64,000 nt of DNA, taken from Albugo candida (lineage: Eukaryota). Below, piece after piece: positions 1 through 61,959 of the stretch; the first letter of the stretch is position 1, and each line of letters starts with the position of its first letter. Under the pieces are notes generated by a model that did no database searches, was not told the origin of the DNA, and worked only from the letters and a program-made list of their open reading frames with translations. Made by a program: the position numbers and the translations under genes. Location of the stretch: contig JBDOQK010000069.1 in assembly GCA_040437565.1 (NCBI GenBank), forward strand, positions 62,001 to 126,000, written 5' to 3'.

Positions 1-2104
1 TCTTTTATACAAAGACGATAGATGTTTTCGATCATGACATGCGAGAGATCATCTGGCACAAAAAATAACTTTTGCAAAGATAACTCAATCTTCGGAGCGA
101 GGATATTTGAAATGTTCACTACAACTATTACAATATTCTCAAGTTGTCAGAGCAATCAGATTAGAAACGATTTCGGTGCTCAAAAGTGCCAACAACTTCG
201 AATCCGAAAAAATGGGGAAAATTTGGAAGACGAAAAGCAAGAAACAGTTTAAAGGAATTCACACGATAGTCGACCCGATGTTGAGTGTGACCAGCGTGTT
301 TTGCAATCACCAACAGCTCGATACCGCAAGCAAGACACCATGCAGTCATAACATTTTTTCGAACGATTCAGTAGTTCAGTCGAAAACAATGCCGAATACA
401 GCTACGATGAAAGCTTCCTTCATCACGGTAAGCATATGGAGAACTCTTCCAAGCATTTTTTTTCACCCTCCGGAGAGTATTGGCGTCGTGTGCCGATCAA
501 AAATGTCACCATAAAATGTGGCACTGTGTCATCGCATCGAACCCGAGAGAAATCATTGACGTTTTAGGAATCAATAGGGGGTGTCATGGGTCTCTCTGTA
601 GCTCCGAGCCCGAATCAGTCGATCCATGTGAAAAAAGATCAAATGTACTGGATCCGATTCAAGTTTCCTTCACGGCAGAAGAGCAAGACCGTCTCTGTAC
701 TCTCTTAAGTACGACCGATATTGCGGAAGCGATCGAGCGAAGTAGTTCCTCTCCAGGTATCGATGGACTGCCGGCTTCATTCTTTAGGCTTCATCCGGAC
801 CTGTTTTGCGCGTGTCTAGAGATCGTGTTCGAATACTTGCTGCGACAATAATGTCCCTCGGGAATCGCATTGTTGTACAAAAAAGATCACGAGGTCATCC
901 TGGCAACTATCGATTCATCCCATTTTTCTGCATCGATGTGAAAGTACTTACAAAAAGTTTGGCGCATAGATTGCAACGTTTTTTGCCGACATTGATCCAT
1001 CAAGACCCGAAATCACATGTGCTAGGAAGGTGGATGCATCAACATATTGGACATCTCACCGACACACAAGACTTGCTCACGCATCGTGTGGAAGATGCTT
1101 GTGCGACTTTTCTCGACTTCGGAAAAGCTTACGATCGAGTCAATTGAACGTACACGTTTCGCGTTGTGAAAAATGGGGTTGGGAATGTTTCATCGACTGG
1201 TTCGGCTTCTGTACAACAACACAAAGCCGCAGTTGATAATCAATGGCAATATCACACCACGCATTACCCACAACGTGGAGTTAACAAGGCAATTCCCTCT
1301 CAGCATTTTTTTCCTGATGACGATCGAATCTATGGGAAATCTACTTTGCCAACATGAAGCACATGGCGTTTTGAATCAATGGCACGACTGTCGGTAAAAC
1401 GTTTCTTCCAGAAACACCAAATGTTGTTTTGACGCGACTAGAACTTGTCCAAGCCTGCTGAGATGGATCAGGTACAAAACTTAACTTGAGCAAATCATCC
1501 TTGCTCACGTTCAATCGTACCATGCCGTTTCCTACTCTTTGAAATCTGACCATTATGGGTCCGGAGGGTTCGTTCAAGTATATGGGTATATGCTTCGACC
1601 AGAGACCGACTCATTCGATGGTCATCTCTACCATCGAAAAGCGATTCTATGCCACGTTTGGTGTATGTTTTTTTCCTGCGTAAACCGTCCGTGGTCGTCA
1701 GATAGTCTTCGACTAAGTGGAAGACTATTTGATATGAAAGTATATAGCAAGGACAGGAAGCATTTCTTCCCTCTATTCTACACAGAAGACTCAAACAAGA
1801 GTCGTCCAATGGTGGCACATTGGTCATCACGGGAGAGACGGGACGCACTGGATACAGAATGTGCTCGAAATCTACGGACTAAACCACGGCATCTCTCTAA
1901 ACGTGTCTTACCGATATTGTATCGACAGTTTTGTTAAGCAATTTGGATGTTGGCATTTTTCTCTCCTTTTTTTGGTTTTAGAAGGATATTCAGTTCGACA
2001 ATGTATTCTGTACTCAGCCTTCGTGTGACGCAGTGGAATCCGATCAACAACTCTTTCTCGAGTGTCACCGCAGAGAATTAATATGGTTGAAGCTACTCCC
2101 TACT
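1..2104 (+). mobile_element. Decayed non-LTR retrotransposon ORF2 (family A): reverse transcriptase and C-terminal Cys/His motif, frameshifted
   Basis: Fragments SPGIDGLPASFF, NYRFIPFFCIDVKVLTKSLAHRLQRFLPTLIH, FLDFGKAYDRVN and C-terminal CTQPSCDAVESDQQLFLEC; homologous to 54060-55063 (CTQPSCGAVESDQHLFLEC). Confidence 0.9.
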
Positions 2105-3575
2105 TGTTGTCGGAAGATGTCATGGACGTTTTTATTTCGGGAGTTTTATGCACCTTACATTGGAGCTGATCCGGCGCGGTGTTTTGTAACGACTTTTAAG
2201 AAAGATAGCGAGCATAAATATCACACTTTCACTTCTACATTTGGCTCTTATCACTCCGGTAACTTCTTCTCTACGCTCACGAATTCTAACAGGTTATGAG
2301 ACTAATGGATCAAGTTACACAAGATCATTATCAGCCGCCAGCCACAACCCATACCAACAATGACGGAGCCAGTAACACGTCCGGTGAGAGTGAGGGCATG
2401 GCAAGGCTGCCGGACTTGGTGATCGAGTTGAAAAGTAAGACCGGAACTCGTCTCCCAAAGGTCGAAGCTCGCAGATCCGAGGATAATCAAGCTTCGGCTG
2501 TGTCCGTCGGCAGCAGCACCTTTTGAGCTTATGCGGAGTCGCTCCCCGGACTTGGCCGACAAATGACGTTATCTTCGCTTGAAGACGAAGTCGTACCAAG
2601 TCCAGCGTGACACCACACCGTAGGACAGGTACATCAGCGTATGGATAGGGCAGACGATAGGCAAGACTCGCCTATCCAACCGCCGCGAGACACAGGGCAT
2701 AGACCGGTTCCAGCACCGACGTATTTTGCGGCGCAAAGACTACTGCAGATAAGAGACCTGAAACTTTCCATCGGGAGTTTTGATGGAAAGGAAGTTTACC
2801 CAGGTCTCGAGGCAGGTTTTTTGGCCCTGGGGAAGAGGTTCTTGCCGCAGATAAATATCTCCGTAAGCCTCAGGGGGTGCATTTGAACTGAATAGATCAA
2901 GATGGATTTCCTCGGTCGGCACTTAACTAGCAAAGCGGGATAGCATTATAATAGCCAAGTGGACAGCTGGTAAAATGAGAATCCTCAGTTGTGGTACTCA
3001 ATGGACAGATTAAATGCTAAATTTGGACGACGAATGACAAAAGTCGCAGGTTTTCAAGTTGTTTACGTCAAAGAAGAAAGAGAGCACTTCGAGGAATGAC
3101 CACTTGCTGTACCTGATGGCATTAAGTGATGCTGACGGGGATGCTGACGATCAAGTACTTGAAAGTATTGCCAAGTTTGCCATCCCATAAAGTGAATTCC
3201 AAGGTTTGCTACTGGCGAGGTTCAATCCTCAGCGAGACGACTACCTTCGCCAAGAGGAGAACTGGTTCTTTTAGCTCAGCTGAATGATCCAGGTCCGCGG
3301 TTGGGTAACAAGCCAGCTGTGGACACTATCAAAGCCACTTGATCTTGGGCAGTTTCAAACCGGCTGTTAGTGCCAGCAAAAGAAGCGTGGCACTTGCTTC
3401 AAGTGTAGCAAGAAAAAACATTACAAACGCGACTGAAAAAATGAAATCTCGAAAGATTTCGGACTAACTGTTGGGAAAGGTATTGATGCAACCTACCACT
3501 GGATACTGGACAGTGGGTCAAATCCTCAGCTGGTGACGACGCCGTCAATGCTTAACGATGCCGTTGTATAGGACG
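2105..3575 (+). mobile_element. Ty1/copia LTR retrotransposon remnant (putative 5' LTR ~2105-2291, PBS, gag, protease)
   Basis: TAACA followed by PBS-like GGTTATGAGAC at 2292; degenerate zinc knuckle TCFKCSKKKHYKRD ~3390-3435; protease motif WILDSGS ~3500; LTR start approximate. Confidence 0.75.
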
Positions 3576-3579
3576 GTGG

Positions 3580-3713
3580 CCGCTAGCACCCTTGGCTGCG
3601 TCGATATGTCGACTTGAACCATTGTTTTCGAGAGGAAAGAGTTGAAAAGTAGTTTTTCAAGTTGTTTTGTACAAAATTGGCGGGTTACGTAGTAGCTGGC
3701 TAACTGGGAAGTG
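3580..3713 (-). mobile_element. 5' terminus of a LINE-like element (probably family A), truncated
   Basis: Nucleotide similarity to 10373-10468 (CGCTAGCACCCT...TCGATATGTYGACTTGAA...GTTGTTTTGTA...GTTACGTAG); starts directly at the tRNA-like duplication 3714-3727. Confidence 0.6.
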
Positions 3714-3727
3714 GCGCGAGTAGCTCA
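3714..3727 (+). repeat. Target-site duplication GCGCGAGTAGCTCA (tRNA positions 1-14-like); second copy at 4036-4049
   Basis: Exact 14-bp direct repeat flanking the SINE; 7 nt + TA + GCTC + A matches tRNA acceptor-strand/D-stem register. Confidence 0.85.
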
Positions 3728-4035
3728 TTTAAGGGTGTTCGCCCGTAGTACTTTTATTTAGACATTTTTCTGTTACTACAGTTTGGTGGTTATCTACTCC
3801 ATTCTAATCACTAGTATGTCACGCTCTAAAGAGCCCGGTCCAACTCCTGTACAGTTATTTTCTGGTGTAGTTGCCAGCGGTCTTGACAAGTCCATATCTT
3901 CATTGATTAGGTTGATATTTACGTGGAGGAGTCTTTGCGTCCGCCGAGGGGCCCCATCGCAGCCCTTTTGCCACCGCCGGGATTCGAACCGGGGTACACA
4001 TGTCTACTACCCGCTAGGCCCCCCGACGTGGGGCT
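3728..4035 (-). mobile_element. tRNA-derived SINE, copy 1 (~308 bp, full length)
   Basis: Minus strand has A-box-like GGCCTAGCGG and perfect B-box GGTTCGAATCCC; unique body shared with copy 2; flanked by a 14-bp TSD. Confidence 0.8.
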
Positions 4036-4049
4036 GCGCGAGTAGCTCA

Positions 4050-4366
4050 GTTGAAGGTGTCTATATTACTAGAATTAGACTAACTGACTTCTTTAGTTGC
4101 CTAGGCTATCTTAAATAACATATATACATATAAAAACGTTTCGAAAATACCTGTGAGAGTTGATAATATGTCCCTCGTTGCTAGTTCTGCAGTGCGGTAG
4201 CGTTCACTACTACAGTACGAGAGTGTGTCCATCGTGTAACGGATAGATGTTGAAAGTTGTAAAGTTGTTAACTGGTAAGTTTGTAAAGTTGTATAATGTT
4301 CCAAAAGTACCTTGGTTTGCACATTGGTGTGCGCCACACTAGGGTGAGAAATCCAGCCAATGAGGA
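4050..4366 (-). mobile_element. 3' UTR/terminus of a family A LINE
   Basis: Highly similar to 54060-54340 (TTGAAGG.GTCTATATTACTAGA.TTAGACTAACTGACT...GCCTAGGCTATCTTAA), which is the 3' UTR of a family A ORF2. Confidence 0.85.
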
Positions 4367-4466
4367 NNNNNNNNNNNNNNNNNNNNNNNNNNNNNNNNNN
4401 NNNNNNNNNNNNNNNNNNNNNNNNNNNNNNNNNNNNNNNNNNNNNNNNNNNNNNNNNNNNNNNNNN

Positions 4467-4677
4467 GTCCAACTCCTGTACAGTAATTTTCTGGTGTAGT
4501 TGCCAGCGGTCTTGACACGTCCATATCTTCATAGAGTAGGTTGATATTTACGTGGAGGAATCTTTGCCTCCGCGGAGGGGCCCCATCGCAGCCCTTTTGC
4601 CACCGCCGGGATTCGAACCGGGGTACACACGGTCGAGACACATGTCTACTATCCGCTAGCCTCCCCGACGGGGCGCT
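4467..4677 (-). mobile_element. tRNA-derived SINE, copy 2 (3' part lost in gap)
   Basis: Homologous to ~3837-4035 with several substitutions; retains an anticodon-arm-like hairpin; B-box GGTTCGAATCCC; 5' end abuts tRNA-Ile position 1. Confidence 0.8.
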
Positions 4678-4750
4678 GGTCGTATAGCTCAGTCAGTAGA
4701 GCACAGTGCTAATAACGCTGCGGTCCAGAATTCGAGCCCCTGTATGACCA
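4678..4750 (+). tRNA. tRNA-Ile(AAT), possibly a pseudogene
   Basis: Acceptor GGTCGTA/TATGACC+A; D-arm GCTC-AGTCAGTA-GAGC; anticodon stem CAGTG/CGCTG with loop CT-AAT-AA; T-loop TTCGAGC, but T-stem CAGAA/CCCTG has two A-C mismatches and no T4 terminator follows. Confidence 0.85.
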
Positions 4751-7700
4751 AACTGTTTGCATACCTATCGCATTAGGGGTGTATGTGTTCATCTAGCATA
4801 GGTAGCGCTTGTAATAGATATGATATGGATTTCGGTCACAACTCACTGCGCGCTCCGATAACAATAAACGTTTGCATGCAGACATAATTAAACACTATCT
4901 TTCAATCGTAACGGATTAAACTGAAAGAACGCAAAGAACGTATCAAAAACATCTATCTCCTTTAGGCCACAAAGGTGTAACGATCATGCGATGAGTTATC
5001 TTCTACGTCATCTGAAAATAACTTTTTCAGGATTTTAACTCGGAAGTTTTGGTGGTGTGGATCTAAACTGTCACAATCTATGTTAAGAACGACTTCTCGT
5101 TAAAATCTGGTAGTAACAAGCTCAATGAAGGGTATTTGTAGGCGAGCGTTTTTCAGTCGATCTCGACAATGGAGCCATAGAAGAAACCATCCGATGTTCT
5201 ACCGGAAGAATAAAGCACAAACCAAGTTACAACACAGTACAGATCGATTATTCAAGCGTTATAGCTATTTGATCATTCATGCGTTACAAAGTCTCTGGGA
5301 ATCAACAGTGGGCAATGTTTGTCCTGTGGACTCGCAGAGTTCGGAACTCATCTATGGAAGGGCTCAGTCTTGAACCAAGATATCGAATTTTTGATACGCT
5401 CATCATAAAAAGAGCACGAAGCTTTACTCAAGATGTTACTCCCGGTAGCGCCCAGAAAATCAAGCACATGAAAGGAATGGATCTTTAAGGCAAAAAGGGG
5501 AAGAGTGGCGCTATCAGACGTCGAAGAGACCCTGTCTAAGAATCCTTCTGTAGATGCACGTGACTTTGTAGGTTCCGTGAGTCTAATGCGAAGCTTATAC
5601 TAGAGGACTTACGCGCGAAAATTGCGTCTCCAAAAGGGCAGAATAGAATAGTAGCTCTCGAAATTATTCGAGACGTCATAAGATTGGTGAATGAACTTGC
5701 GACATGGTAATTGTGACGATCTTGTAGAGATACTTAAGCTTCTAAGTCAAGAGTACGACATGAATATTGTGGCTAAGTCATTCGAAGAAACTATTTGATC
5801 GAAGATGGCGATATATTGTCCGATAAAAAGACTGTCATCCTCGAGAGACCTAGTAAACATATGATGCCATACAACATCTCGTGATAACTATATCANNNNN
5901 NNNNNNNNNNNNNNNNNNNNNNNNNNNNNNNNNNNNNNNNNNNNNNNNNNNNNNNNNNNNNNNNNNNNNNNNNNNNNNNNNNNNNNNNNNNNNNNGGACT
6001 TACGCGCGAAAATTGCGTCTCCAAAAGGGCAGAATAGAATAGTAGCTCTCGAAATTATTCGAGACGTCATAAGATTGGTGAATGAACTTGCGACATGGTA
6101 ATTGTGACGATCTTGTAGAGATACTTAAGCTTCTAAGTCAAGAGTACGACATGAATATTGTGGCTAAGTCATTCGAAGAAACTATTTGATCGAAGATGGC
6201 GATATATTGTCCGATAAAAAGACTGTCATCCTCGAGAGACCTAGTAAACATATGATGCCATACAACATCTCGTGATAACTATATCAGCAGATGTATGATA
6301 TACGCATTTGATTATCTCCAACGAAAGATAAGGCATCTCAAGCACGATTCCAGACCGTCTCGTTCATCGAAAGAAGTTTGATTAAAGTCTCGAATTGCTT
6401 TACGACCACTTACGTTGCCAATCGAGCCTGAGTAACAAATATAGCAATACGACATGTAAAGCCGACACTCTGCTCGACAGGTGAAGACATAGATCCAGCA
6501 CTTCGAATATCAAGCGGTAGAAGCTCTCCTATGGGTACGAAATCCGCTTATCTCCATTTCTAATCAAGGACACGATGGTATCAAGCAATAGAGCTAGTTC
6601 TCGATTCAAGTGAACATGCCTTGGAAGGATGCGATCAAATGTAAAATCAGCTCCAGAAGCAAGAGAATAAAAGCTTTGGAAGCATAAAAAAAGGTATAGA
6701 AGATAAACGCTGACAGAAATGAAAGCACCAGCGAGCAGTACAAATTGCTACCGGTCTCACTAAAATGCTCCTATTAGCGGAGCTGCCATTGACTCAAGCG
6801 AAAGATTCTGATGAATGTGAAAGAATCGTAAGTGATTTTGTACAAGATCAGTAGCCTAGATGTCCAAGCTAGAATCCGTTGTATTAAGGGGATCAACCGC
6901 AAACGTGTGATCGAGTAACTCAAAGTATTTGTAGGGTCACCGAAGTAGATCATTTGCGTCTCGGCGAAAGATTTACTTTATTTCGCAGAGCGTACCGGTG
7001 AATCTAAATACAGAATATTAATGTATTCAGAGAACGAATTCCAAGCGATTGACTTATTGGCATCAGATTTATGTCGTCATCGAAGCATCATCGTGTCAAT
7101 GGGGCTTCCTTCATCATTGTACGAAATAAGTGATCATAAATAATGTGTCCGAACCAGTCCGACGACTGATTATTGCATTCAGTGATGACACATATCCAGA
7201 ATAAGTCGTCAGTCGCATCCTTTACTATATAACTTTGACAAATTCACCCTGCTTTCATTGTATGTTCGTTAAAGCCATATCCATACTGATCAAGGATTTG
7301 TATGAAATTTATGTCCATGAGCTTCGTTCGAGTACATTAGGTCACGCGGGATGTAATCGTCGGATGCAAAAATTCAGAAAGCTCTGTCACTATAATGGGA
7401 ACAATGTACAGACGGGTATGCGCAGAAATTCTACCGAAACTGTGATTTGATAATTGAAACAAATATTGGAAATTTATGCCAAGAAGGAATGTAAAGAACG
7501 GATACGGGAGCGATGGATATCGTCGTGCAAAGCTCTCGTGATTCATATAAGGAAACCCAATGAGAGTGGGAATATCCTATGCTTCTCCGACCACATGGAG
7601 ACACTAAATACGAAAATAATGGATGTATTTGATCTTGAAGATTCCAGCAATCTGATCCCGAATAACTTTCGATTGATGTAAAATTTGAAGATGATAAAGT

Positions 7701-9559: not shown

Positions 9560-10468
9560 TATGATAGTTCGCTTCGGCTGATAGAAAGGAAGGTGAAGTG
9601 GGTGAAGTTGTCGTCTGGAGTTTGAAGAATTGAGTCCGAAGTTGTACCAGGTGACATGCGTTGAAGGCTATTTAGTTTCAAGAGTATCAAACTTCCGAAA
9701 AAAATACTTTTCCCCCAGGATAGTCACCGGCTGACACTCCAACTGCTGACAGGCATCCGTCGTGGTGACCATGACCCTGATGTTTCCCCAAGGCATTTTG
9801 CACACCTGAGCGATTGATCGGCTTTCCAGTAGGCTTCCAAAAACCGGTTTGCCGTGGTTGCGTTTTTAGGAGAACAAAAAATTTCTCATTTGGTGCACGG
9901 GTCAAGGACTGACCCGTCTCTCTGCAAGACCATGGTGGAGGTGGCTTTCCGGATTTGGAAAGGTCTTGCTGCTTCCAATGTTTCAGCCGAGACCGAACAC
10001 TCTGGATACTCTATTTGAATCTCCTGATATCCTCGATATCCAAGGAGTTCGGCTTAGCGCGCTCCACGCGGTATCTCGCCGGAGCTCGAGTCCGCTCCTT
10101 ACGTAAGGACTCCTGTGACTTGATAAGGTCCGCCAAAGTGGGACTTTTGGTGTCATACACACTTGCTGTTGCCTTTGGGTCAACCTGTGACGAGGCAATG
10201 ACAGTACCACCGGTACCACATTCTAGATCGGTAGTACCGGTTTTACCCTGAACCGTCACTCCGTAGGTGAGGGTACTTTCCACGTCATCACACAGAGGTG
10301 ATGACTCATCAACAATCATGGAATCAATCAAAACAGGGTAACTCCTGAGGTTTGCCACATCACTACAAGTAAACGCTAGCACCCTGCGTTGTGTCGATAT
10401 GTTGACTTGAAAGACTTGAAACATGTTGTTTTTCGAGTTGTTTTGTATCAATTCGGCGAGTTACGTAG
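9560..10468 (-). mobile_element. Putative 5' end/ORF1 remnant of the LINE seen at 3580-3713
   Basis: 146-aa ORF 10011-10451 plus downstream fragments; 10373-10468 homologous to ~3590-3692; left boundary uncertain. Confidence 0.45.
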
Positions 10469-16900: not shown

Positions 16901-19900
16901 GCGTTGTTTAGTTGCTGAGAGAAGGTTCGTCCGAATAGGGAAGGTAGAGCGGCTAAACGTAAGTTTGCTTTCGTAATAGCGGTTTCAAGCGCTTTGGCGA
17001 GAAAAAAATCAATGTAGTCGAACTGATTCGCCCTTGACATTGATCCAACATCAAAGCAGATCGTTGACTGTTGAGATCGTGATGGGTGGATGGATTGGGT
17101 GCTTCAAGGAAGCCGGAACAGTGGACACATGAGTCGTATTTTTCGTGAATATCCGGGTTGAACGCCGAAATGGGAACATTAGGATCGCAATGGTCAATCC
17201 AGAGAAGTTCAAGAATGTTGGGCATGACCGGGAACTTAAAATTCATTTTGTTGTAAAATATACGGATTTGTGATTGAGGGATGTTTGAAACGGCCGATGC
17301 GTGATCCGTCGCGAGGTAAGATGTCCGCGTAACAAATTTGAAGTGCGGTTCAGTTGGAGGGGCGGCAGGATCTTGATGACTTTTTGACGTGCTGAAAAGG
17401 TGGCATCGCTCATGATCGAAGATCCGAATTATGAAGCGTCATTAGTAGAGTCCAAAACTGATGATTCGGAAGTAGGAAAGACAGCTTGGGGCTTTGAAGT
17501 GTCCGATATAACTGATGAAGATGCATCGGAAGGGCGGGTAGCGACAAGATTAGCCCAGATACTTGAGTTCAAAGGTCAGCTTAAGCTAAATCCGGAAGTC
17601 TTAGTTCCAGGGCGGTGAGGTGGTGGCGTCACTTTGTTGTACTTGCTGAGTCGATTTGTAACGATGTAAGGACGGAGTTGTGTGTGCTGGTGTGATGGGT
17701 CATGAAAAGTTATCCCCTAACCGGGTTATGGTAGAGACAGACGGGTACTTTGCCGGAGGTGAAATATGCTGTCCATTGAGTTGAGGGAAGCCCACTATCG
17801 ATGGAGGGTCGAATGCCTGTTGGGAGACAGCCACGTTGTTGAAACCAGTCGTAGATTTCACTATCCGTGATCCCATCCGGCAAGCGTACAGAATGTGCTA
17901 ATTATCGTGAAGTGAATGAGGAGTAGCGGTCAATTAGAAGCCGCAGTGGCGAAGAGACAAAGCTCAAACTATCATAAAGAAGATGCCACATTGAACGAGG
18001 TTCAGAAAAAGTCGATTCCCATGCCTTGGATTGAGCGGAAGTCGCGTAATAGGTAGTTGTTTTTGAAATTCTGCCACGCAAGGGTTTAAGACGCATTTTT
18101 GAGCTCAATGTAAATTTTCGAAGAGCTTCTTCAAGCGATATGTAACCGCAGAGAATCCAGAATTTGAACGGGACTTTGGTCCGAGTTGGTGCAATTCGAA
18201 GGGCGATGCGTTTTGCTCTTCGACATTGCCCGTAAGAAGAGCGTGAGCGATGGCTTCTTCAATTTCTTGGAGAAGAGCGTCATAAGAAATCTCAAGTGAA
18301 AAACGCTGTCGTTGAGGGGGTCGTGGAGGGCCAAGAGGGGTAGTGGTGGCGAATGTTGACGCGATTTCCATTGCTCAGCCCGTGACATTGATTGTGGTGG
18401 TGTTGGGCGAAGTTTCGGCGGCGGAGGAGGTGGATTGGTAGGTGGTGGAAGCGTTGATCCCGTTAATGTGGGGGAATAGAGGACGGTGATGTTGATAAGG
18501 GGGTTCCTTGCCTGCGGAAGCGTGCGATGAACGCGTGATCATGTTGGTTGGTCAGCCAGTAACAGAAAAGACACTGACCCAAGTCTATTTTCCGTGAAAA
18601 GCGGACCAAAGATCTGATTAAAGTAGAAAAGTGACGGGTAGGCTAGTCGACAGTACCACTGTAATCTGGTCCTAGGGCGATGGATGGGGCAGTAAACTGT
18701 AAAAGCTAAGTTGATAGTCGGAAATTCCAGTCGAAAGTAGCCTTGGGATCTGGGCTGTGGGCGAGAGGCGGCGCAGAGAACCGGAAGACTTGGTTGAAAG
18801 GTGGAAAGGTTCAGTTGAGGGAGAATGGGCACTATTGAAGGCGGAAAATGACGGAAAGATGAAGCTGGAAACTGTAGGATGTGCATTGCTTAAATTCGAG
18901 CTCCAAGAAAACCTTAAAGATGTTAATGTACCATACTGCTGATAATTGCTTCAATCCATTTGAACTTCGCTGTAGCTAGCAAACTTGACCCTTTTTTTCA
19001 TTTCTGGTTGTGGCCGCATGTACACATCTTCGAAATATCCATTAAGAAATGCTGTATCCACATCATACAGGGTAATCTCGTAACCAACTTGAACACAGAC
19101 ATACTGAGGAATACTCTGATCGAAATGATGCTTGCAACAGGGGTGTATGTTTCATTTTAGTCGACTCCGGTTGTTTGTCGAAGTCGTTGCGCAACCAGTC
19201 TTGCCTTATATATCTCAACTGCACCATGGTCGCCTCGCTAAATTGCAAACACCCATTTACACCCGATCACCTTCTGACCGTTTGGACTATCTACTCTTTT
19301 CCATGTCTGCTTTTCATTCAGCGACTTGAACTCTAATGCTGCCGCATGTTTGCATTGGGGAGCTTCAGCGCTTTGCAAAACTTCCGGTTATGTTGTAGGG
19401 CTTTCAATGGCTGCGTTTGCTTGCACGGACGTAAGCCGCAATCGCTTTTACTCTCGATTGACTTCAGCAAGATCGAGCTGATTTTTATCTTGATACGAAA
19501 TAATGGCATCGCTGAACGCAATTGCTGGTGTTGTCCTGTGGAGACGTCCGGGAACAATGCTGATGTCGTGATTATGTGAATATCCATCCATTTATATTCA
19601 TCATCTCGACACAATATTAGTTTCTGGACGTTGGCACTGAGAACTAACTTGGCTAGGAGGAACTGAGATAATTCCCCCCGGCACAATATTCATCAACTTC
19701 CATGTAGGAAGTGCCTTCAGCTGAATGATCCAAGGATACTAAGTGTATGTCAAGTCGTCCAGGTACCATGAGTTGATGATTTTAGTATGTTTGGCCAGCT
19801 TGATAAATTTTCATGAATTGCGGTTTCTGACACTCGATGCGTACACATGGAGTTCGATGATAATCAAATGAATTTCTTCTTGGAGTCATTTCAGGGTTCT

Positions 19901-22517
19901 AAAATATTGACATGAATATACATGGTCTGATTAGCTTCTGTTAGGCGAATACTTCGGGATATCTCTACTCTTTTGGTCGGTATGTTGAATACCCGATACG
20001 CTTTCGAGTTGTCCGCGTATCCGAGGAATAGCAGGATTAGGCCATTGCGTCTAATTATGATTGCTTCGACTTGTCGATATGTGCAAAGCCAGTAGATCCG
20101 AAAAGACGAGGGTGACTGATGCCTGCTTTTTCTTTGAAACAAATTTTCAGTGATGTGCACTACACTCGAAGACTATTCAGGACGCGGCGTATGATTTACG
20201 CTGCGGTACTGACAGCTTCCGCTCACCATTCCTTTGCCATATTCTTGTGTTCCATCATTGCACGAGCTCTTTAATGAATCTTCGGTTCATCGTTTCGCCA
20301 AACCATACTGTTGCGTTGAGAACGTGTCCCATAGTCTGATGGACTATTCCATTTCGTTGACAATCTTCCTCAATTCGCCTTTTCAAAAAATATGTACCGT
20401 TATCCGTTCATAAGCACTTGATCTCCTACTTGTTTGGCGTTCCACCATCGCTTTGTAAGCCACCTGCTGATGTCGTTCTCATCGGTCCCAACAGATCGCT
20501 GTAGATTACTTGCAGCAGTTCCGTTGTCTTCTACTCAATGCTCTTTGCGTCGAGAATTGGGACACCGATGATTTTTCATTTTCACAACCCGCACAAATCT
20601 CATCTGTTTCTATATCATCGTGAACAGAACATTCTGGCACTTGAACCCCAGTGCAACATTTTTGCGTTCGTTCAAGTTGAGCAGAGGGAGGTAACTCAAG
20701 CGAGCATGCCATATTTTCAGTCTTGACTGCCTTCACTGGAAGATGCAGGCGATGTAGTCTCGGTTCGTGTCCTTGGTAGTGTATGCAGTGTGACATCTCC
20801 CCCTCCGCTTTATACGAATGATCGTCTCGGTCTCTGACTTAATCTCGCACCAGTTGCTACCAAAAGAAACATTAAGACCACTGGCCGTTAACTCGGATGT
20901 TGATAGTAGTGGGCGGTCCAATTTCGGCACGTATAACACGTCATGAATGGTGACATGTTCAGCATTGTTGAGACTAACTGGTATTGAACAAGTGCTTTTA
21001 GCTTCGACTGTAGTCTCATTTGCAATTGGTATCTTGATTGAACGATCAAGATCCATCAGTGATGCGAATTCTGACTTGTCATAGCTCATATGACCGCTGT
21101 TAGCACTGTTCAAAAGCCAGGCATTCTTCTTTGGGCGGTAATTTTCATAAGCGCATAATCGTTCCGGCTTAAACGCTTTTTTTATTTGCTTCGTTAAAAA
21201 CATTCCGCTTGTCTTTGCACACGCTTTCCACAGTTGAAACATTTCCACCAAACGAGTTCCTGTTGATTCGAGTATTGTTGGGTCTTGTCCTTAAAAATTT
21301 ACTCTTCTTGGCCTTCAGCCCAAGATCCTTTAATTCCTTTTTTCTGGATACTGTCCTAGTCTCGGCGGATAATTTCACGAGCACTCTTCGAATTGATTCC
21401 AGGCATGCTCTTCAGGATTCGTGTAATGTGTTCATAGTCTTTAGACAGACTACCCAGAAACACCGGGAGCATTCTTACTCATCCGTCACGTCTCCGATAG
21501 ACGACATGCTCATCGCTAGTTCATCTAGCTTTATCATATGATCCATCAAGCTGCTCCCTCTTTCCATCTTGAGCTCGTGCAGCTAACGTCGCACTTGTAC
21601 TCGATTGTGTAAACTTTTCCGATCAAAAGAATTGTGGAATGTATCTCAAAGCTGCCTCGTCGACATCGTATTCCTGATCATCAATTGATTCAGCGCCGTG
21701 AGCATTGTCGAAAGAAGACAAAACGTCTTCAGGTCGTTTGTTCTCTAAACTGCCACCGCTGAAGCGTCCTCCATCTTGATGTCAACTTCTTCCAAATGCT
21801 GTAGTAAACGTCTCCTCGCAGACTTCATCCGTGCATTGAATTCCAAATAGAAGCAGTTGCCGTCTCTGAGTATGTCATGCCTGACATCCATCGCGCTTGG
21901 GCTCATTAGCTGCTGATGGTCTCCAACCAACGAGAACCAGGGAGCTTAAATTCGGAAGTACGTATATTAGGTCCCTAATTCACNNNNNNNNNNNNNNNNN
22001 NNNNNNNNNNNNNNNNNNNNNNNNNNNNNNNNNNNNNNNNNNNNNNNNNNNNNNNNNNNNNNNNNNNNNNNNNNNNNNNNNNNAGTAAACGTCTCCTCGC
22101 AGACTTCATCCGTGCATTGAATTCCAAATAGAAGCAGTTGCCGTCTCTGAGTATGTCATGCCTGACATCCATCGCGCTTGGGCTCATTAGCTGCTGATGG
22201 TCTCCAACCAACGAGAACCAGGGAGCTTAAATTCGGAAGTACGTATATTAGGTCCCTAATTCACTTAACAGTTAATCTAAGCCTTTAAAAACTACCGCAT
22301 CTTATCTGCAAGTCCGTTATGTTGCTAACATCCAACGAAAACTGGTCCGAGGGCAAGAGACAATTCATTGAGTGTAGAGGTGAGCTGGAAAGGGGTTACT
22401 GGGGTTGGTGGAGAAGGCTGAGTAGGCTGCTAAAGTTGAGACGTAGCCGGCTTTATGGACTATTGATGGAGCTAGGTACAAGGAAAAGCACGTGTGCACC
22501 AGCGAGAGAATTGGAAA
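13915..22517 (-). mobile_element. Family X LINE X2 (5' UTR, ORF1 remnant, APE, RT; 3' truncated; copia inserted in 5' UTR)
   Basis: VCGEFNLPIDP (APE); NYRPLMILNQDAKFGPKVLAHRL and LAFTDDATG (RT); 5' UTR 22335-22517 homologous to 32492-32680. Confidence 0.85.
18900..22330 (-). mobile_element. Ty1/copia remnant (5' LTR 22192-22330, PBS, gag, protease, integrase, start of RT; 3' truncated)
   Basis: Minus strand LTR TGTTAG...AGCA then PBS-like GCTAATGAGCCC; gag DGNCFYLEFNARM; protease WLLNSANSGHM, DVLYVPKL; FLGYADNSKAYRVF; YTPVASI. Confidence 0.85.
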
Positions 22518-22535: not shown

Positions 22536-25500
22536 ATGTTACGTTACATTATAATTACGTTGACATTCCTATACGCTAGCTATGTGAAAAGAATAAAATG
22601 TAATATATAACAAGGAAGACTAGCATTGGCCCAAGTGAGCGCGCATGGTATGCCGGGGTCGTTGGGTAAAGAGGTGTTGTGCGGAACCGGGTAGATGGGG
22701 AAGCGGTAAAAGCGCAAGAGGATCTCCATCATGGCCTTAACGGAAACTTCATAACAGACAGGCGATCTTTATCCAATGGGTGTGGTAGTGGTTTGTAGGA
22801 CTATATGTTGTCGAAAGGCCGCATTTACTTGATACAAGACAAAGGCGTAGTTGGTCGCTTGGTTTTTGTAAACGCGGTGGTTGCGATGGAGCCATGATGT
22901 GCGAAGAATGCAGCCACGAAGGCAGTGTAGGATAGGTAAGACCACGGAACCAATCATTGTCTGGAATCGGGCCTGAGCCGAAAATCCGAATGGAAAAAGA
23001 GACTGGTCCAATCTAGAGGATGGGAATAAACGAAGTCGAAGGGGTTCNNNNNNNNNNNNNNNNNNNNNNNNNNNNNNNNNNNNNNNNNNNNNNNNNNNNN
23101 NNNNNNNNNNNNNNNNNNNNNNNNNNNNNNNNNNNNNNNNNNNNNNNGCTAGCTATGTGAAAAGAATAAAATGTAATATATAACAAGGAAGACTAGCATT
23201 GGCCCAAGTGAGCGCGCATGGTATGCCGGGGTCGTTGGGTAAAGAGGTGTTGTGCGGAACCGGGTAGATGGGGAAGCGGTAAAAGCGCAAGAGGATCTCC
23301 ATCATGGCCTTAACGGAAACTTCATAACAGACAGGCGATCTTTATCCAATGGGTGTGGTAGTGGTTTGTAGGACTATATGTTGTCGAAAGGCCGCATTTA
23401 CTTGATACAAGACAAAGGCGTAGTTGGTCGCTTGGTTTTTGTAAACGCGGTGGTTGCGATGGAGCCATGATGTGCGAAGAATGCAGCCACGAAGGCAGTG
23501 TAGGATAGGTAAGACCACGGAACCAATCATTGTCTGGAATCGGGCCTGAGCCGAAAATCCGAATGGAAAAAGAGACTGGTCCAATCTAGAGGATGGGAAT
23601 AAACGAAGTCGAAGGGGTTCTAGTAAAAAGACTAAAGTATTCGAGCGATACGACAATCCCAAAAAAGGTGACGAGGTGTCTCGATAAACGAGCAGCCATG
23701 TACGCAAAGGGTGGAGAGGTGAACCTGAGTGCGCCATTGTAACGGCAAACGAGGGCGTTGTGAAGAAGGCGAAAAAACAGATCGGAGCAGACGGATTTGA
23801 GATACCGATTCAGTGATTGTTGATCTGCCCAGAAAGTTGTTGTTAGGGATATGGGGAGATGCTAGAACGAAATGCATAGACGAGAGAAGGGGAGTGCTGG
23901 TGGGGAAGGGGGTTAGAGTTGTCGAATGATCAAATTGGTGGTGACACGATGGAGAGGTAAATTATCCAAGTTCCCGGCATCATAGGCACCAAGGTGGGGA
24001 TCTGGGGATAGAGGGCGAAAGGATCCAGCAATGTAAAGTTGTAGGATGATGATGTTAAGCTTGGTTAGTAGGGTAGTGGCGACTTTGTTGACTTGTTTGG
24101 TTCAGGAGCGGAAGAAAAGACGGAGGGAGTCCAATTGTAGTGATACGACTAGGAGCTGCAGGAAAGTCTAGGATACGATAGACGTATTGAGATAGAAGGT
24201 GATGACTTATGGTGATCGTTCTCATAAGAGGGAGTTCAGAGGTGTCATAGCAGAGGAGATTTTTTTAGCCAAATAGGCTGATATAGGTGTTAAGTTATAG
24301 AGCGATATTTAGAGAATAGATAGGGAAGGAAATGCTGGCACCACAAACCCAGAGTGTCAAGCCAAATGGCTGGGACATGACGCCATTTGGTAGAGTTGGG
24401 TGTAACTGGAAGTGGTGTTGCAATATAGAGAATATCCAGTAAGACTCCGGCGTTTTGTAAAATGTCAGAAAGAAGCTGAAGGATGAAGAAACCAATGAGG
24501 GATGTACCCTCGGGAGCGACAGATTTCGCATATGGCTTCAATAAGGATGATGAGACGAATGCTGCGTAGGGTGACGGCAACTAAAGGTAGGCCGAGGTCA
24601 CCAAGGGAAGGTGATACCAAGTGCCATACTGCGATGAGCTGCCCTTGTGTAGAAGAGGTTGGAAGGTCGGCAGTGGTTTTGTTTTGAACGAAGTTGTGGA
24701 CGATAGGTCGTAGACGAGCGAGTTGGTCATTACTGAAGTAAATGATCGAACCAACATGCCAAAGAATGAGGAGAACGATCGTACGGAGGATTAGTACGCA
24801 TCCACGGATGGTTCGTTCTCGCCAACGCCATACCAGCGCATGGTGATGAAATTGAGTGAGGAGTTGGTCGGATTGATACGAAGATGACGGTCTCGGTCCA
24901 ACATAGACGCCCAAACGTAATTTAGAGCTCTCGACGAGTCGTACATCCAATGAGGTGAAGCTGGGTCGGAGGGAGTTGACATGTGAAGACCCGGACGGAA
25001 AGGCATGACTATTGTATTAGACCCTTTAGAGTCATGTCAACCGCAGAACAAAATGTTTGAACTTGGGATAAAAATGTCGGAACGTGGGTTAGTCGTCCAG
25101 TAAGCCAGTGACATCGTCAGCGGACGCCAAAATGGGTTGAGATTCCGGGTGAGTGGGGACTGGGAGACCGAAATCGGATAATCGTTGCCGAAGGTAGTTC
25201 AGTAGAGGCTCAATAGATATCACAAATAGCCCGGAAGATAAAGGATCGCCTTGTGGAACACCAGCGTCAATGGAGAAGAGGCGGCTGGCGCTCCATTGAC
25301 GAGATCTTGAGATATGTTGGCGATGTAGAAGGTCGTAATTCAACGGCAAAAGCGGGGACTAAACCATAAGTGGCGACGCGTCACGAGGAACACCTGACGA
25401 TCAATTCTGTGAAAAGCCTTGGCATAGTCGAGGAGGATCGCCCTAGCATTTGGGAAAGAAGGGTGAAGCCGACAAAAGTATTTAAGAGCGTGGAAGCGAC

Positions 25501-52754: not shown

Positions 52755-54059
52755 AGAACAAGTTCAGCTTCCCTTCCTTTCCTTCCTCAAGAAGAACCAG
52801 CTCACTTTACAAGCATCTTCCCTTTCAATAGAAGAACAAAGCCCTCTTCTACCAGCCTTTCCTTCTTCGGGAGAAGAATCAGTCCATCTTTATCAGCATT
52901 TCCATCTTCGAGAAAGCGAAGTCTGTTTTGACTCGCCTTTCCTTCCTCGGTAGAACCAGAAGTCCGGCTTTATTAGCCTTTCCTTCTTTGGAAACAACAG
53001 AGACCCGGCTTTTTAGCCTTTCCTTCTCTGCAGCAGTCACCTTCAGCCTGTACAAGCCGTTGCTTCTTCGGAAGATGTAGAAGCCCATCCTTATGGCTTC
53101 CACCAAACCGCAGTCTAGTGTCAACACATCTTGGCGCAACAGATTTCGTAACAATCACCCCCATAAAGTCCAATATGTCCCGAATGAAGACGTATTTCAA
53201 TCCATTGAAGATGCCGTAGCATTCAATGCTTCCGCCTCAACCTTTAAAATGCTAGCACTACGGGAAGTACGCAAACCCGCATCGATCTGTGCTACAAATT
53301 CGAAATATCTATTCCGGCCCCAAGGCTAACCACAATATTCCGCCTTGATGAGATGCTACTCTCGCAACATCTTGAAGCACAAACGGCCACTTGGTTATGG
53401 CCTTAGACTCTCATTGCTACTTTGTCATTATCAATGACAAAGGCTTCAAGTCCCCCTATCTGGACAAAACTGTCGCTCAGAAACTTGGCGGCACTGCCGT
53501 CCAATGCATGGGAAAGCACTTTGTGGTTCACCTTTATCGTCGATTTGGTGAATGGTACTTTGTTAAGCTCAACAAAATACCCATGGGTCTACCGAATGAC
53601 TCAATAGTTGATCACTTCCTCCCACTTGGTATTCCATTTTTCGTGACACCAAGCACAAAACCCGGCCTCATAGAATCCCGGGATCGGGTAGTTTGGTTCC
53701 GGTCCAAAACTGCAACAAAAAGGCTTTTTACGACAAGCCAGCAACCTTTACGGAAGATTTACTTCCCTGGCTTACCTGACCCAGTATATGTGCACCACAA
53801 ACATCGTGCATTCAACCAAGTCACCCCTCCCTCCATCATGGCAAAGAAGGCAGCGATCAAAGCCGCTAAAGGCTTCAAAACTTCGACAAACACACTTCGC
53901 CATATCGATCTCACAGCCCCGATCGCTCAAAAAAAAGTCACACCTTCTAACAACATCCCATCCTTGGTTTGCTCCACCATCAAAGACTCCTGCGACGCAT
54001 GGATTCAAGTCTCGAAGGATATATCAACTGCCGTAATCGCACTCCTTCCCCAGCATCAG

Positions 54060-55063
54060 TTGAAGGAGTCTATATTACTAGAGTTAGACTAACTGACTGC
54101 TCTAGCTGCCTAGGCTATCTTAATAACATATATACATATAAAAAAAGGTGAAAGGACTTTGAGAGATGATAATATGTCTTCTCGTTGATAATCCCGAAGC
54201 GCAGTAGCCTCAGCACCCTTAATACGAGACTGTGTCCAGCTTGTAAATGCTGTAAAGTTGTAAAGTTGTGAAAATGGTCCAAAAGTACCGTGGGTTTGCA
54301 TATTGGTGTGCGCCACACTACGGTGAGCATAACCAGCCAACTAGGACTAGGATCTGACTTGCACTTGCATTTTGACTTGTCTGGGCCGTACGCGCAGTAA
54401 TGATCTTCGGCTTCTGAAAAATCCACCAAATGATCCTTGCTTTACGAGTTGATCCAGCATCTTAGCAAGCCGACTGCGTTCGTCTTGGTCGTAACACTGT
54501 CTTCGAAAGTACCGAACGTGCGCACTAAACGTGGTGTAGATCACGGAAAGTGCTGGAACTGTCGGAGTTGCTGATCGATGATCGAATAAACGACGATTCC
54601 GATCTGTCCAGACGAAGTGCAGTGTCACNNNNNNNNNNNNNNNNNNNNNNNNNNNNNNNNNNNNNNNNNNNNNNNNNNNNNNNNNNNNNNNNNNNNNNNN
54701 NNNNNNNNNNNNNNNNNNNNNNNNNNNNCCGTGTGATCGCACTCTAGAAAGAGATGTTGATCGGATTCCACTGCCCCACACGAAGGCTGCGTGCACAATA
54801 TAATGTCGGACTGAATATCCTTCAAGAACCAGAAACGAGATCGAACTGGCAACATCCGAAAGGCTAGACGAAACTGTAAATCCTCGAAAATTGGTAATAC
54901 ACGTTTTCGAAGATGCCGTGATGTAGCCATAAAAGTTTGAACTCGTTCTGAATCCAGTGTTTCCGATCTCTCCCGTGATGACGAATACGTCGACATTGGA
55001 TGACTTGGTCGGTTCGGGAGGTTTCCAGACGATTGGTGAGAGTTGTGAGCGTGGAATAAATAG
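54060..55063 (-). mobile_element. 5'-truncated family A LINE with 16-bp TSD CCTTCCCCAGCATCAG
   Basis: TSD at 54044-54059 and 55064-55079; LQFRLAFRMLPV...CTQPSCGAVESDQHLFLEC; 3' UTR shared with 4050-4366; host ORF1 resumes after 55079. Confidence 0.92.
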
Positions 55064-61850: not shown

Positions 61851-61959
61851 AAAGAAGAAGAGGCGGCCTTCTTCGATTAACCCGTCACCCCGACCGGCTA
61901 TCAGCTTGCTTTCTCGCAAGTGGAAGCCGACGAATGACACGACATCACTTGCGTGATCA

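What the first reader, a model, noticed from the sequence alone, without database searches (positions are those of the whole stretch)
3580..4750. tRNA-targeted LINE/SINE array that duplicates tRNA positions 1-15
Seen on the minus strand: LINE-A 3' end, then TGAGCTACTCGCGC, SINE, TGAGCTACTCGCGC again, then a LINE 5' end. A second SINE's 5' end abuts nucleotide 1 of tRNA-Ile (GGTCGTATAGCTCAG). Both junctions are in the same tRNA register (7 nt + TAGCTCAG) but belong to different tRNAs. Inference: the family nicks in the A-box/D-arm and at +1, so insertion would leave a complete tRNA gene divergent from the element, a safe-harbour strategy able to use several isoacceptors.
Basis: partly seen in the sequence, partly recalled or inferred. 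Interest (0 to 1): 0.85.

Follow-up and report, generated by a model that had tools for sequence, protein, structure and literature searches.

The report
A-box-directed LINE/SINE pile-up beside a tRNA
Retrotransposons in this oomycete-like genome repeatedly insert at the short motif TAGCTCA|G, which is the conserved promoter box inside many tRNA genes, and the duplication they make can rebuild an intact tRNA gene next to the element.

Summary
An exact 14-bp repeat, GCGCGAGTAGCTCA (3714-3727 and 4036-4049), brackets a 308-bp minus-strand SINE. A high-copy 5' end with an ORF1 start lies on one side and a LINE 3' tail on the other. A second SINE copy ends at 4677, one base before a tRNA-Ile(AAU) that scores 51 bits.

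Contigs from four public runs add other loci. There the same SINE head, 5' end and LINE tail abut different short stretches ending in (T)AGCTCA(G).

I read this as target-primed insertion at the A-box motif TAGCTCA|G. The element lies antisense to the motif, and the 14-16 bp duplication starts at tRNA +1 when the target is a tRNA gene.

The tRNA-specific part is only partly supported:
- "7 nt + TAGCTCA" follows automatically from a fixed nick plus a 14-bp duplication.
- Only one target is a proven tRNA, and it has a weak T stem and no nearby T-run.
- A second LINE-A copy sits in a non-tRNA site (…AGCATCAG).
- No genome was available to count tRNA association or to look for a GCGCGAG tRNA.
- The gap at 4367-4466 stayed open.

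It is a new variant of target-specific non-LTR retrotransposons. Interest is moderate.

The parts
3576..3713 (-). X: the 5' end of a very high-copy element (about 90-nt leader plus an ORF1-like ATG). Its first base, at 3713, abuts duplication copy 1. It is cut off at 3576 against single-copy DNA.
   Evidence: 69% identity to 10374-10468. Summed contig depth is about 2800 against about 4 in the flank for run X1, with a consistent loose end at 3576. The ORF at 10014-10460 has 27 relatives, mostly short ORF1-like proteins of 50-243 aa.
3714..3727 (+). Target-site duplication copy 1, GCGCGAGTAGCTCA. It reads like tRNA positions 1-14.
3728..4035 (-). SINE1, 308 bp. The head carries a B-box-like GGTTCGAATCC, and the 3' end reads ...CACCCTTAAA.
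   Evidence: Alignment with SINE2. Flanked by the exact 14-bp repeat. The Rfam tRNA model does not hit the head at E<=10.
4036..4050 (+). Target-site duplication copy 2 (4036-4049) plus G4050, which corresponds to tRNA position 15.
4051..4366 (-). LINE-A 3' end. In sense orientation it reads ...GACACCTTCAA. It runs into the gap.
   Evidence: 75% identity to 54060-54346. The 4068-4131 bin has the highest summed depth of the stretch.
4367..4466 (.). Assembly gap of 100 N. It hides the rest of LINE-A and the 3' end of SINE2.
   Evidence: Depth 0 and no bridging contig listed.
4467..4677 (-). SINE2, 5' part only. Its 5' end is at 4677.
   Evidence: 87-88% identity to SINE1.
4678..4750 (+). tRNA-Ile(AAU), 73 nt, divergent from SINE2 with zero spacing. 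Pairs 52:62 and 53:61 are mismatched. There is no T4 run until 5023.
   Evidence: ARAGORN. Rfam RF00005 at 51.2 bits. T-run scan.
54060..55063 (-). Second, 5'-truncated LINE-A copy. It is flanked by a 16-bp duplication, CCTTCCCCAGCATCAG (54044-54059 and 55064-55079), and sits inside ORF1 of another LINE. This is a non-tRNA target.
   Evidence: The interrupted ORF is contiguous in a homologous protein, P0040 residues 49-172 and 169-300.
1..2290 (+). Degenerate LINE-A-like copy carrying the reverse-transcriptase region.
   Evidence: RVT_1 at 788-1144 with E=1.3e-6. 76% identity between 1800-2064 and 54740-55005. 432-848 matches the pre-RT region of oomycete APE+RT LINE proteins.

Best explanation
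One or more co-mobilised non-LTR families insert by target-primed reverse transcription at the short DNA motif (T)AGCTCA|G. These are LINE-A, the ORF1-bearing 5' end X (which probably belongs to LINE-A or a close relative), and a roughly 308-bp SINE with a tRNA-like head. The motif is the A box and D-arm (positions 8-15) of many tRNA genes.

**Proposed steps**
1. The first nick is on the strand that reads TAGCTCAG. It falls after A14 for the SINE and after G15 for LINE-A.
2. The element is therefore laid down antisense to the motif.
3. The second nick falls 14-16 bp upstream and produces a 14-16 bp duplication.
4. When the target is a tRNA gene, the duplicated piece is tRNA 1-14/15. The copy next to the element's 5' end is then a whole tRNA gene that starts at the first base after the element.
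5. Both duplicated copies keep the motif. After a LINE-A insertion the left copy even reads TAGCTCAG+TTG, like a D-loop. The site can therefore be hit again, which builds head-to-tail stacks such as X / T / SINE1 / T / LINE-A.

**Shown:** the duplications, the orientation, the junction positions, one real tRNA target, and other loci with the same motif.

**Inferred:** the nick positions, an APE-type endonuclease as the specificity determinant, and possible help from base pairing between read-through 3' RNA and the nicked target. Whether tRNA genes are preferred beyond what the motif alone would give is also an inference.

The confidence given is for motif-directed insertion. I put a true preference for tRNA genes beyond the motif at about 0.5.
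For: 1. An exact 14-bp duplication sits at independently defined SINE1 ends.
2. The SINE2 5' end is at 4677 and a 51.2-bit tRNA starts at 4678 on the opposite strand.
3. Before SINE1 arrived, the site read X-5'end / GCGCGAGTAGCTCAG / LINE-A tail. Three separate elements therefore used one 15-nt site, all in the same orientation.
4. The independent LINE-A copy has its 3' junction after ...AGCATCAG, a near-match to the motif, with a 16-bp duplication.
5. Contigs from four public runs show further junctions:
   - a SINE head joined through 6 other letters to 4678 (GGTCGTATAGCTCAG...), in X1 at depth 18.4 and X3 at depth 5.3;
   - a SINE head joined through 13 letters to TAGCTCA plus a SINE tail (X19);
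   - the X 5' end joined through 9 letters to AGCTCAG plus the LINE-A tail (X1).
6. The loose ends left of the LINE-A tail cluster at 4042-4047. Contigs whose likeness runs through TAGCTCAG (break at 4043) number 13 (X1), 16 (X9), 15 (X19) and 7 (X3). Five more in X1 break at 4042. Breaks at 4044 or 4045 number 11 (X19) and 14 (X9). Breaks at 4047 (TCAG only) number 15, 13 and 15. The flanks are mostly unlike each other (agreement 0.39-0.61). Four extra matching bases would be expected by chance in about 1 of 256 junctions.
7. Relatives of the window's LINE reverse transcriptase are oomycete LINEs with APE endonuclease (PF03372) plus RVT_1. The LINE-A-like copy aligns to their pre-RT region.
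Against: 1. The '7 nt + TAGCTCA' register is a by-product of a fixed nick and a 14-bp duplication. It says nothing about tRNA identity.
2. Only 1 of the 4 distinct target prefixes seen is a proven tRNA (GGTCGTA). GCGCGAG is plausible. The other two (…TCTCCTA+TAGCTCA and …TTCCGCCCC+AGCTCAG) do not look like usual tRNA starts.
3. With the window's base composition, about 1100 chance TAGCTCAG sites are expected per 37 Mb (the genome size is assumed). Reported tRNA counts are 153 and 314 in two Albugo genomes (PMC3130010 and PMC13585763, passages read). Motif-only targeting would still hit a tRNA now and then.
4. The second LINE-A copy is in a non-tRNA site.
5. The X-like copy at 10374-10468 has no such motif beyond its end.
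6. TAGCTCAG at 3272-3279 is unoccupied.
7. Only 24 of 388 loose-end rows were shown, so there are no true denominators.
8. The joints have short sides (22-33 nt) and were made at 88% likeness from contigs, which the tool itself marks as weak.
9. Part of the TAGCTCAG next to LINE-A tails could be read-through sequence carried from a master copy.
10. The endonuclease of LINE-A itself is not in the window.
Confidence: 0.75

Rival explanations
1. There is only a loose 3'-end microhomology preference (TCA/TCAG). The elements integrate broadly, wherever the nicked DNA can pair with the last bases of their RNA. On this view the longer TAGCTCA matches come from flanking sequence carried along by read-through transcripts of a few master copies, and the tRNA neighbour is incidental.
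For: About a third of the listed LINE-A tail junction classes share only TCAG, with random-looking flanks at agreement 0.39-0.43. The second LINE-A copy lies in ...AGCATCAG inside another LINE's ORF1. The staggered break points at 4042-4047 are what variable-length 3' carry-over would give.
Against: The motif also sits in the 5'-side copies of the duplications, which cannot be carried by 3' read-through. Examples are SINE1 copy 2, the tRNA-Ile next to SINE2, and the joints with other prefixes. The prefixes before TAGCTCA differ between loci, so they are not one master flank. A SINE 5' end exactly at +1 of a tRNA by chance is roughly a 1e-5 event per junction. That figure is my estimate from a few hundred tRNA genes in tens of Mb.
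Confidence: 0.13
2. Targeting is strictly of tRNA genes and is mediated by Pol III factors (TFIIIB/TFIIIC), as in Dictyostelium TRE5/NLTR-A or yeast Ty3. On this view the motif is only a passenger of the tRNA gene.
For: One element 5' end lies directly at a tRNA +1. Dp_NLTR-A is reported 2-6 bp upstream of tRNA genes (PMC5006619, passages read).
Against: SINE1 inserted into a 15-nt remnant followed by a LINE tail, with no B box or tRNA body. LINE-A also inserted in a LINE ORF at a motif-like site. The junctions are nucleotide-precise within the motif and duplicate part of the gene. That pattern is typical of DNA-sequence-reading endonucleases, not of factor-tethered integration at a distance (PMC3706591 discussion, passages read).
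Confidence: 0.05
3. The arrangement is an assembly or scaffolding artefact. On this view the stack of elements and the tRNA adjacency are mis-joins of collapsed repeats in a draft assembly.
For: The window has 13 gaps of 100 N, and four of them are flanked by duplicated sequence. The repeats are very high-copy. No listed contig from the runs spans the T1 or T2 junctions exactly as in the window (only 32 of 2138 pieces were shown).
Against: A perfect 14-bp duplication at both SINE1 ends is what a real insertion leaves, not a mis-join. A contig of about 300 nt covers 4697-4999 without mismatch in X1. Contigs in three runs span the 3576 junction. Analogous junctions with other prefixes occur in independent runs.
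Confidence: 0.04

Closest known systems
Target-specific APE-type non-LTR retrotransposons (Tx1 group: Tx1L, Keno, Mutsu, Dewa; R1 group: R1, TRAS, SART)
   Same: These are LINEs whose endonuclease cuts one DNA sequence. Insertions are nucleotide-precise, keep a fixed orientation and hit multicopy RNA genes or repeats. The targets listed include U2, 5S and the tRNA-Leu spacer (PMC3706591 and PMC4640811, passages read). The help from 3' read-through pairing with the target is recalled from work on R1/R2 and was not read here.
   Different: The target here is the A box inside tRNA genes, an 8-mer shared by several isoacceptors. The 14-bp duplication rebuilds a whole gene instead of leaving it split. 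Clade membership was not tested, and specificity is visibly leaky.
tRNA-gene-specific RLE LINEs: NeSL-1_TV (tRNA-Pro), LIN15_SM (tRNA-Arg), LIN25_SM (tRNA-Glu)
   Same: They are non-LTR retrotransposons reported as specific for tRNA genes (PMC4640811, passage read).
   Different: Those encode a restriction-like endonuclease, and each uses one tRNA species. The relatives of the window's LINEs carry an APE endonuclease, and at least two different prefixes are used here. The details of their insertion sites are in a supplement that I could not see.
Dada DNA transposons of Perkinsus marinus (Dada-tI, -tY)
   Same: They insert inside tRNA genes at TAGCTC, the same A-box core (PMC3706591, passage read).
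   Different: They are DDE transposase elements with 6-7 bp duplications, and the tRNA gene is split. Here the elements are retroelements with 14-16 bp duplications, and no transposase is present.
Dictyostelium purpureum NLTR-A; TRE5/TRE3; yeast Ty3
   Same: The end result is the same: an element sits directly upstream of an intact tRNA gene. NLTR-A lies 2-6 bp upstream (PMC5006619, passages read).
   Different: Those integrate outside the gene at a distance set by Pol III factors, and no part of the gene is duplicated. Here the cut is inside the gene and reads a DNA motif.

Membership tests
Target-specific non-LTR retrotransposon (sequence-reading endonuclease) | Independent insertions at the same short sequence, at the same nucleotide | tested here: met
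   Window: SINE1, LINE-A (twice), X and SINE2 all have junctions at (T)AGC(A)TCA|G. Public contigs: three further joints with other prefixes, and 7-16 contigs per run whose likeness runs through TAGCTCAG. Denominators are unknown because only 24 of 388 rows were shown.
Target-specific non-LTR retrotransposon (sequence-reading endonuclease) | Fixed orientation relative to the target | tested here: met
   All 5 junctions in the window are antisense to the strand that reads TAGCTCAG. One contig joint ('opposite strands', 3723 to 4044) shows two tails facing each other across a palindromic GAGCT/AGCTC, which is compatible.
Target-specific non-LTR retrotransposon (sequence-reading endonuclease) | ORF2 with endonuclease plus reverse transcriptase | tested here: inconclusive
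   RVT_1 is present in the LINE-A-like copy. No endonuclease domain was found in any window ORF by Pfam. Relatives of another LINE in the window carry PF03372+PF00078, and LINE-A aligns to their pre-RT part at 26-29%.
Tx1 or R1 clade | Placement in the reverse-transcriptase phylogeny | not tested
   No reference set of clade sequences was available and no tree was built.
SINE | Short, non-coding, flanked by a target-site duplication, several copies with the same 5' end | tested here: met
   308 bp with a 14-bp duplication. SINE2 shares the same 5' start, and at least two more heads appear in public contigs.
SINE | Pol III head derived from tRNA, 5S or 7SL | tested here: inconclusive
   The head contains GGTTCGAATCC followed by CGGTGGCA, which reads like a tRNA T-arm plus acceptor (consensus recalled). 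The Rfam tRNA model gives no hit at E<=10, and folding is no better than shuffles.
SINE | 3' tail shared with a partner LINE | tested here: inconclusive
   Only the last ~10 nt resemble the LINE-A tail (…CACCCTTAAA against …GACACCTTCAA). 3748-3875 is far higher in copy number than the head in X1, which suggests a partner tail. No partner was identified.
tRNA gene (RF00005) | Full-length match above the gathering score | tested here: met
   51.2 bits against 29, model positions 1-71 of 71. The first gathering-mode scan of the whole window listed nothing.
tRNA gene (RF00005) | Signs of an active Pol III gene: intact B box and T stem, T-run terminator close downstream | tested here: not met
   Pairs 52:62 and 53:61 are mismatched. 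The first run of four or more T is 273 nt downstream. Which features are required is from general knowledge.
Pol III-factor-tethered tRNA targeting (TRE5, NLTR-A, Ty3) | Needs a tRNA gene body or Pol III complex and integrates outside the gene | tested here: not met
   Insertion occurred inside the motif, into a 15-nt remnant and into a LINE ORF.
Dada DNA transposons | DDE transposase and 6-7 bp duplication | tested here: not met
   The duplications are 14 and 16 bp. No transposase domain was found in the ORFs scanned.

The most novel reading that the evidence does not exclude
An APE-type LINE and its SINE partner have evolved to read the tRNA A box itself, so one endonuclease specificity opens every isoacceptor that carries TAGCTCAG. 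The stagger is tuned to start at tRNA +1, so each insertion regenerates an intact tRNA gene. It also places the SINE's own Pol III head back to back with that gene, possibly sharing its transcription factors. On this reading tRNA genes act as renewable landing pads that seed the retrotransposon stacks of this genome.
Probability: 0.3. Interest if true: 0.7.

Novelty: new variant of a known kind. Interest (0 to 1): 0.5.

Why it matters
Site-specific LINEs are models for how a mobile element can live in a compact genome without killing its host. They are also studied as leads for programmable gene insertion.

This case would add a target inside tRNA genes that is shared across isoacceptors. It would also add a geometry that repairs the hit gene through the duplication instead of sacrificing it. 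The target-specific non-LTR cases described in the passages I read (rDNA, snRNA, 5S) are insertions within the target gene.

It would also explain why retrotransposon piles in such genomes nucleate next to tRNA genes. For annotation, it means short 'tRNA 5' fragments' between repeats are insertion scars, not decayed genes.

Tried and rejected
- **Collection scans.** A 25-nt LINE-A tail pattern found 0 matches in metagenome contigs and 0 in genome contigs.
- **Gap closure.** Laying contigs of four runs on 3300-5200 gave depth 0 in 4388-4451. No loose end at 4366 or 4467 appeared among the 24 of 388 rows shown. A hole there proves nothing.
- **SINE flanks through proteins.** I searched the SINE-antisense ORF (3762-4049) against the protein collection, hoping for ORFs called across other copies. 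One candidate shared words with the query and none scored.
- **Further copies in the window.** A sensitive blastn with LINE-A tail, SINE and X queries found only the copies already listed.
- **Endonuclease.** Pfam on 160 window ORFs in all found RVT_1, copia domains and nothing for an endonuclease.
- **Folding.** The SINE heads and the two tails fold no better than shuffles.
- **Promoter and terminator scan.** This is a bacterial-type scan and is not informative here.
- **Template-switch chimera (as in U6/L1).** Rejected, because the tRNA and the SINE are on opposite strands.
- **The 14-mer as part of the element.** Rejected, because the prefix differs between loci.
- **Literature.** Five full-text searches and passages of eight papers turned up no LINE or SINE inserting in the tRNA A box with a gene-restoring duplication. 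They also turned up nothing on tRNA-directed LINEs in oomycetes. Repbase reports and the supplements (for example S6 Fig of PMC4640811) were not visible and may hold such cases.
Full report
**What the window is.** The 64-kb window is a eukaryotic repeat graveyard. It has 13 gaps of 100 N. At least seven degenerate LINE copies carry RVT_1, and there are copia-type pieces. LINE bodies show strong strand skew. The best-preserved reverse-transcriptase ORF (57409-58158) has its closest named relatives in oomycete LINE proteins. These are from Globisporangium, Peronospora and Phytophthora at 57-65% identity, with an Albugo laibachii fragment at 70% over half the query. Many of these relatives carry an APE endonuclease domain plus RVT_1. 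No whole genome is held for the window, and earlier notes were closed.

**The observation.** GCGCGAGTAGCTCA occurs exactly twice, at 3714-3727 and 4036-4049. The 308 bp between the two copies (3728-4035) is a minus-strand SINE. A second copy, SINE2 (4467-4677, 87-88% identity), shares its 5' start and is cut off by the gap.

Directly after SINE2's 5' end a tRNA-Ile(AAU) begins at 4678 on the other strand. ARAGORN finds it. The Rfam tRNA model matches it end to end at 51.2 bits. The first gathering-mode scan of the whole window had listed nothing.

To the right of the second 14-mer and G4050 lies the reverse complement of a LINE 3' end (LINE-A, 4051-4366). It is 75% identical to 54060-54346, the 3' end of a 5'-truncated LINE copy. 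That copy's C-terminal ORF matches a copy at 1-2290 that carries reverse transcriptase.

To the left of the first 14-mer lies X (3576-3713), a leader plus ATG. It resembles 10374-10468, where it opens a 149-aa ORF. That ORF has 27 relatives, nearly all short ORF1-like proteins. One predicted protein (P0139) even fuses a LINE-A-C-terminus-like stretch to this ORF1, as a head-to-tail arrangement would allow. The only correction is that the duplication is 14 bp, not 15.

**Order of events.** SINE1's perfect duplication means the site previously read X-5'end / GCGCGAGTAGCTCAG / LINE-A-tail. That order is what serial insertions into one target give. Each insertion leaves a target copy on both sides, and a later element can enter either copy. 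Three elements used this 15-nt site, all antisense to the strand reading TAGCTCAG.

SINE1 entered when only 15 nt of the tRNA-like sequence were left, followed by a LINE tail. What is recognised is therefore a short DNA motif, not a tRNA gene with its B box or its transcription factors.

**Independent copies.** The second LINE-A copy (54060-55063) has a clean 16-bp duplication, CCTTCCCCAGCATCAG. It lies inside ORF1 of another LINE. The two ORF halves are contiguous in a homologous protein. Its 3' junction is again after …TCAG, and AGCATCAG is one inserted base away from AGCTCAG. It is nevertheless not a tRNA.

Contigs of four public runs laid on 3300-5200 at 88% likeness show that X, the SINE 3' part and above all the LINE-A tail are very high-copy. 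Summed depth is about 16,600 in the 4068-4131 bin, against 4-6 in the single-copy flanks of run X1. The tool warns that this is not a copy number.

The contigs also show other loci:
- a SINE head joined through 6 other letters to 4678 (GGTCGTATAGCTCAG…), with one contig each in X1 and X3;
- a SINE head joined through 13 letters to TAGCTCA plus a SINE tail (X19);
- the X 5' end joined through 9 letters to AGCTCAG plus the LINE-A tail (X1).

The loose ends left of the LINE-A tail break at 4043 in 13, 16, 15 and 7 contigs (X1, X9, X19, X3). They break at 4042 in 5 (X1), at 4044 or 4045 in 11 (X19) and 14 (X9), and at 4047 in 15, 13 and 15. The flanks mostly disagree with each other. Many different loci therefore carry TAGCTCAG, or most of it, next to this tail, where chance would extend a match by four bases about once in 256.

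There are limits to this evidence. Only 24 of 388 loose-end rows and 32 of 2138 pieces were shown. The joint sides are 22-33 nt. These are contigs, not reads.

**What this supports and what it does not.** Insertion at (T)AGCTCA|G with a 14-16 bp duplication is well supported. The duplicated piece is tRNA 1-14, and the copy at the element's 5' side is complete and divergent, as at SINE2/tRNA-Ile.

The argument that both junctions share a 'tRNA register' carries no extra weight, however. Any insertion at that motif with a 14-bp duplication gives 7 nt + TAGCTCA. Of the four distinct prefixes seen, one is a proven tRNA, one (GCGCGAG) is plausible, and two do not look like usual tRNA starts.

With the window's composition, about 1100 chance TAGCTCAG sites are expected in 37 Mb (genome size assumed). 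Two Albugo genome papers report a few hundred tRNA genes (PMC3130010: 153; PMC13585763: 314; passages read). A purely motif-reading element would then land in a tRNA gene in perhaps one case in ten or twenty. One or two tRNA targets out of four is suggestive but not significant.

Other points weigh against the safe-harbour reading:
- the tRNA-Ile here has two T-stem mismatches that fall in the B box;
- it has no run of four T for 273 nt downstream;
- an X-like 5' end at 10468 has no such motif beside it;
- a TAGCTCAG at 3272 is unoccupied.

**Mechanism.** I propose target-primed reverse transcription by an APE-type LINE endonuclease with sequence preference for the A-box motif. The first nick is on the tRNA-sense strand after A14 or G15. 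The cDNA is primed from …GCTCA-3'. The second nick falls 14-16 bp upstream on the other strand.

Pairing between the nicked DNA end and read-through RNA that carries the previous target may sharpen the junction. That idea is recalled from work on R1/R2 and was not tested here. The endonuclease of LINE-A itself is not in the window, so its type rests on relatives.

**Comparison with known systems.** Target-specific non-LTR retrotransposons are an established kind. APE-bearing Tx1 and R1 groups and RLE-bearing groups target rDNA, snRNA, 5S and spliced-leader genes, microsatellites and telomeres. tRNA genes are named among the targets: NeSL-1_TV for tRNA-Pro, LIN15_SM for tRNA-Arg, LIN25_SM for tRNA-Glu, and Dewa for the tRNA-Leu spacer (PMC4640811, PMC3706591 and PMC8869645, passages read).

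Dada DNA transposons of Perkinsus use TAGCTC in the same A box, with 6-7 bp duplications (PMC3706591). Dictyostelid NLTR-A sits 2-6 bp upstream of tRNA genes (PMC5006619).

Three things differ here. The LINE/SINE set is probably APE-type. The motif is shared by several isoacceptors. The duplication restores the gene.

My five full-text searches found no description of this, in oomycetes or elsewhere. Repbase reports and paper supplements were not visible.

**Verdict.** Preference for tRNA genes beyond the motif remains open, and I put it at about even odds. I rate it a new variant of a known kind, of moderate interest. It is directly testable on any complete assembly of this organism.

Noticed in passing
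5605-5895 / 5996-6286; 21803-21983 / 22084-22264; 22575-23047 / 23148-23620; 44189-44410 / 44511-44732: The sequence on either side of four 100-N gaps is duplicated (100%, 100%, 100% and 97.7% identity). These look like unmerged contig overlaps, so the gaps are probably artefacts of negative size.
   Followed up: no
window 10000-32000 and 32000-60000: GC skew is very strong, about +0.3 and then about -0.3, and follows the orientation of the LINE bodies. The LINE sense strands are markedly C-rich over G.
   Followed up: no
window 4678-4750: The gathering-mode Rfam scan of the whole window listed no family. The E-value-mode scans found the tRNA at 51.2 bits, well above its gathering score. A tRNA can therefore be missed by the fast filters.
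   Followed up: partly
53376-60180 and 61112-61988: A LINE with ORF1 plus ORF2 on the + strand is followed head-to-tail by the ORF1 region of a second copy of the same family (47% amino-acid identity). No TGAGCTA lies between them. This family stacks too, but apparently at another target.
   Followed up: partly
2290-3575: This stretch is single-copy by contig depth and lies between the LINE-A-like copy and X. By eye it encodes a Cys/His knuckle-like stretch near 3390-3440, but the two ORFs scanned (2290-2526, 2611-2886) gave no Pfam hit. The junction with X at 3576 is present in contigs of three runs.
   Followed up: partly
3272-3279: An unoccupied TAGCTCAG lies in single-copy DNA 440 bp from the stack. 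It could serve as an internal control site for polymorphism screens.
   Followed up: no
19894-21290 (-), 51123-51683 (-), 62158-62853 (+): There are copia-type LTR retrotransposon fragments with Pol_BBD, SH3_retrovirus, RVT_2 and Retrotran_gag_2 domains.
   Followed up: no
protein P0139: This predicted protein from a public assembly joins a stretch like the LINE-A C-terminus (…NRRLFD…SVIY.TF…) to the X-type ORF1. That hints that the LINE-A 3' / X 5' tandem is common enough to be merged by gene callers.
   Followed up: no
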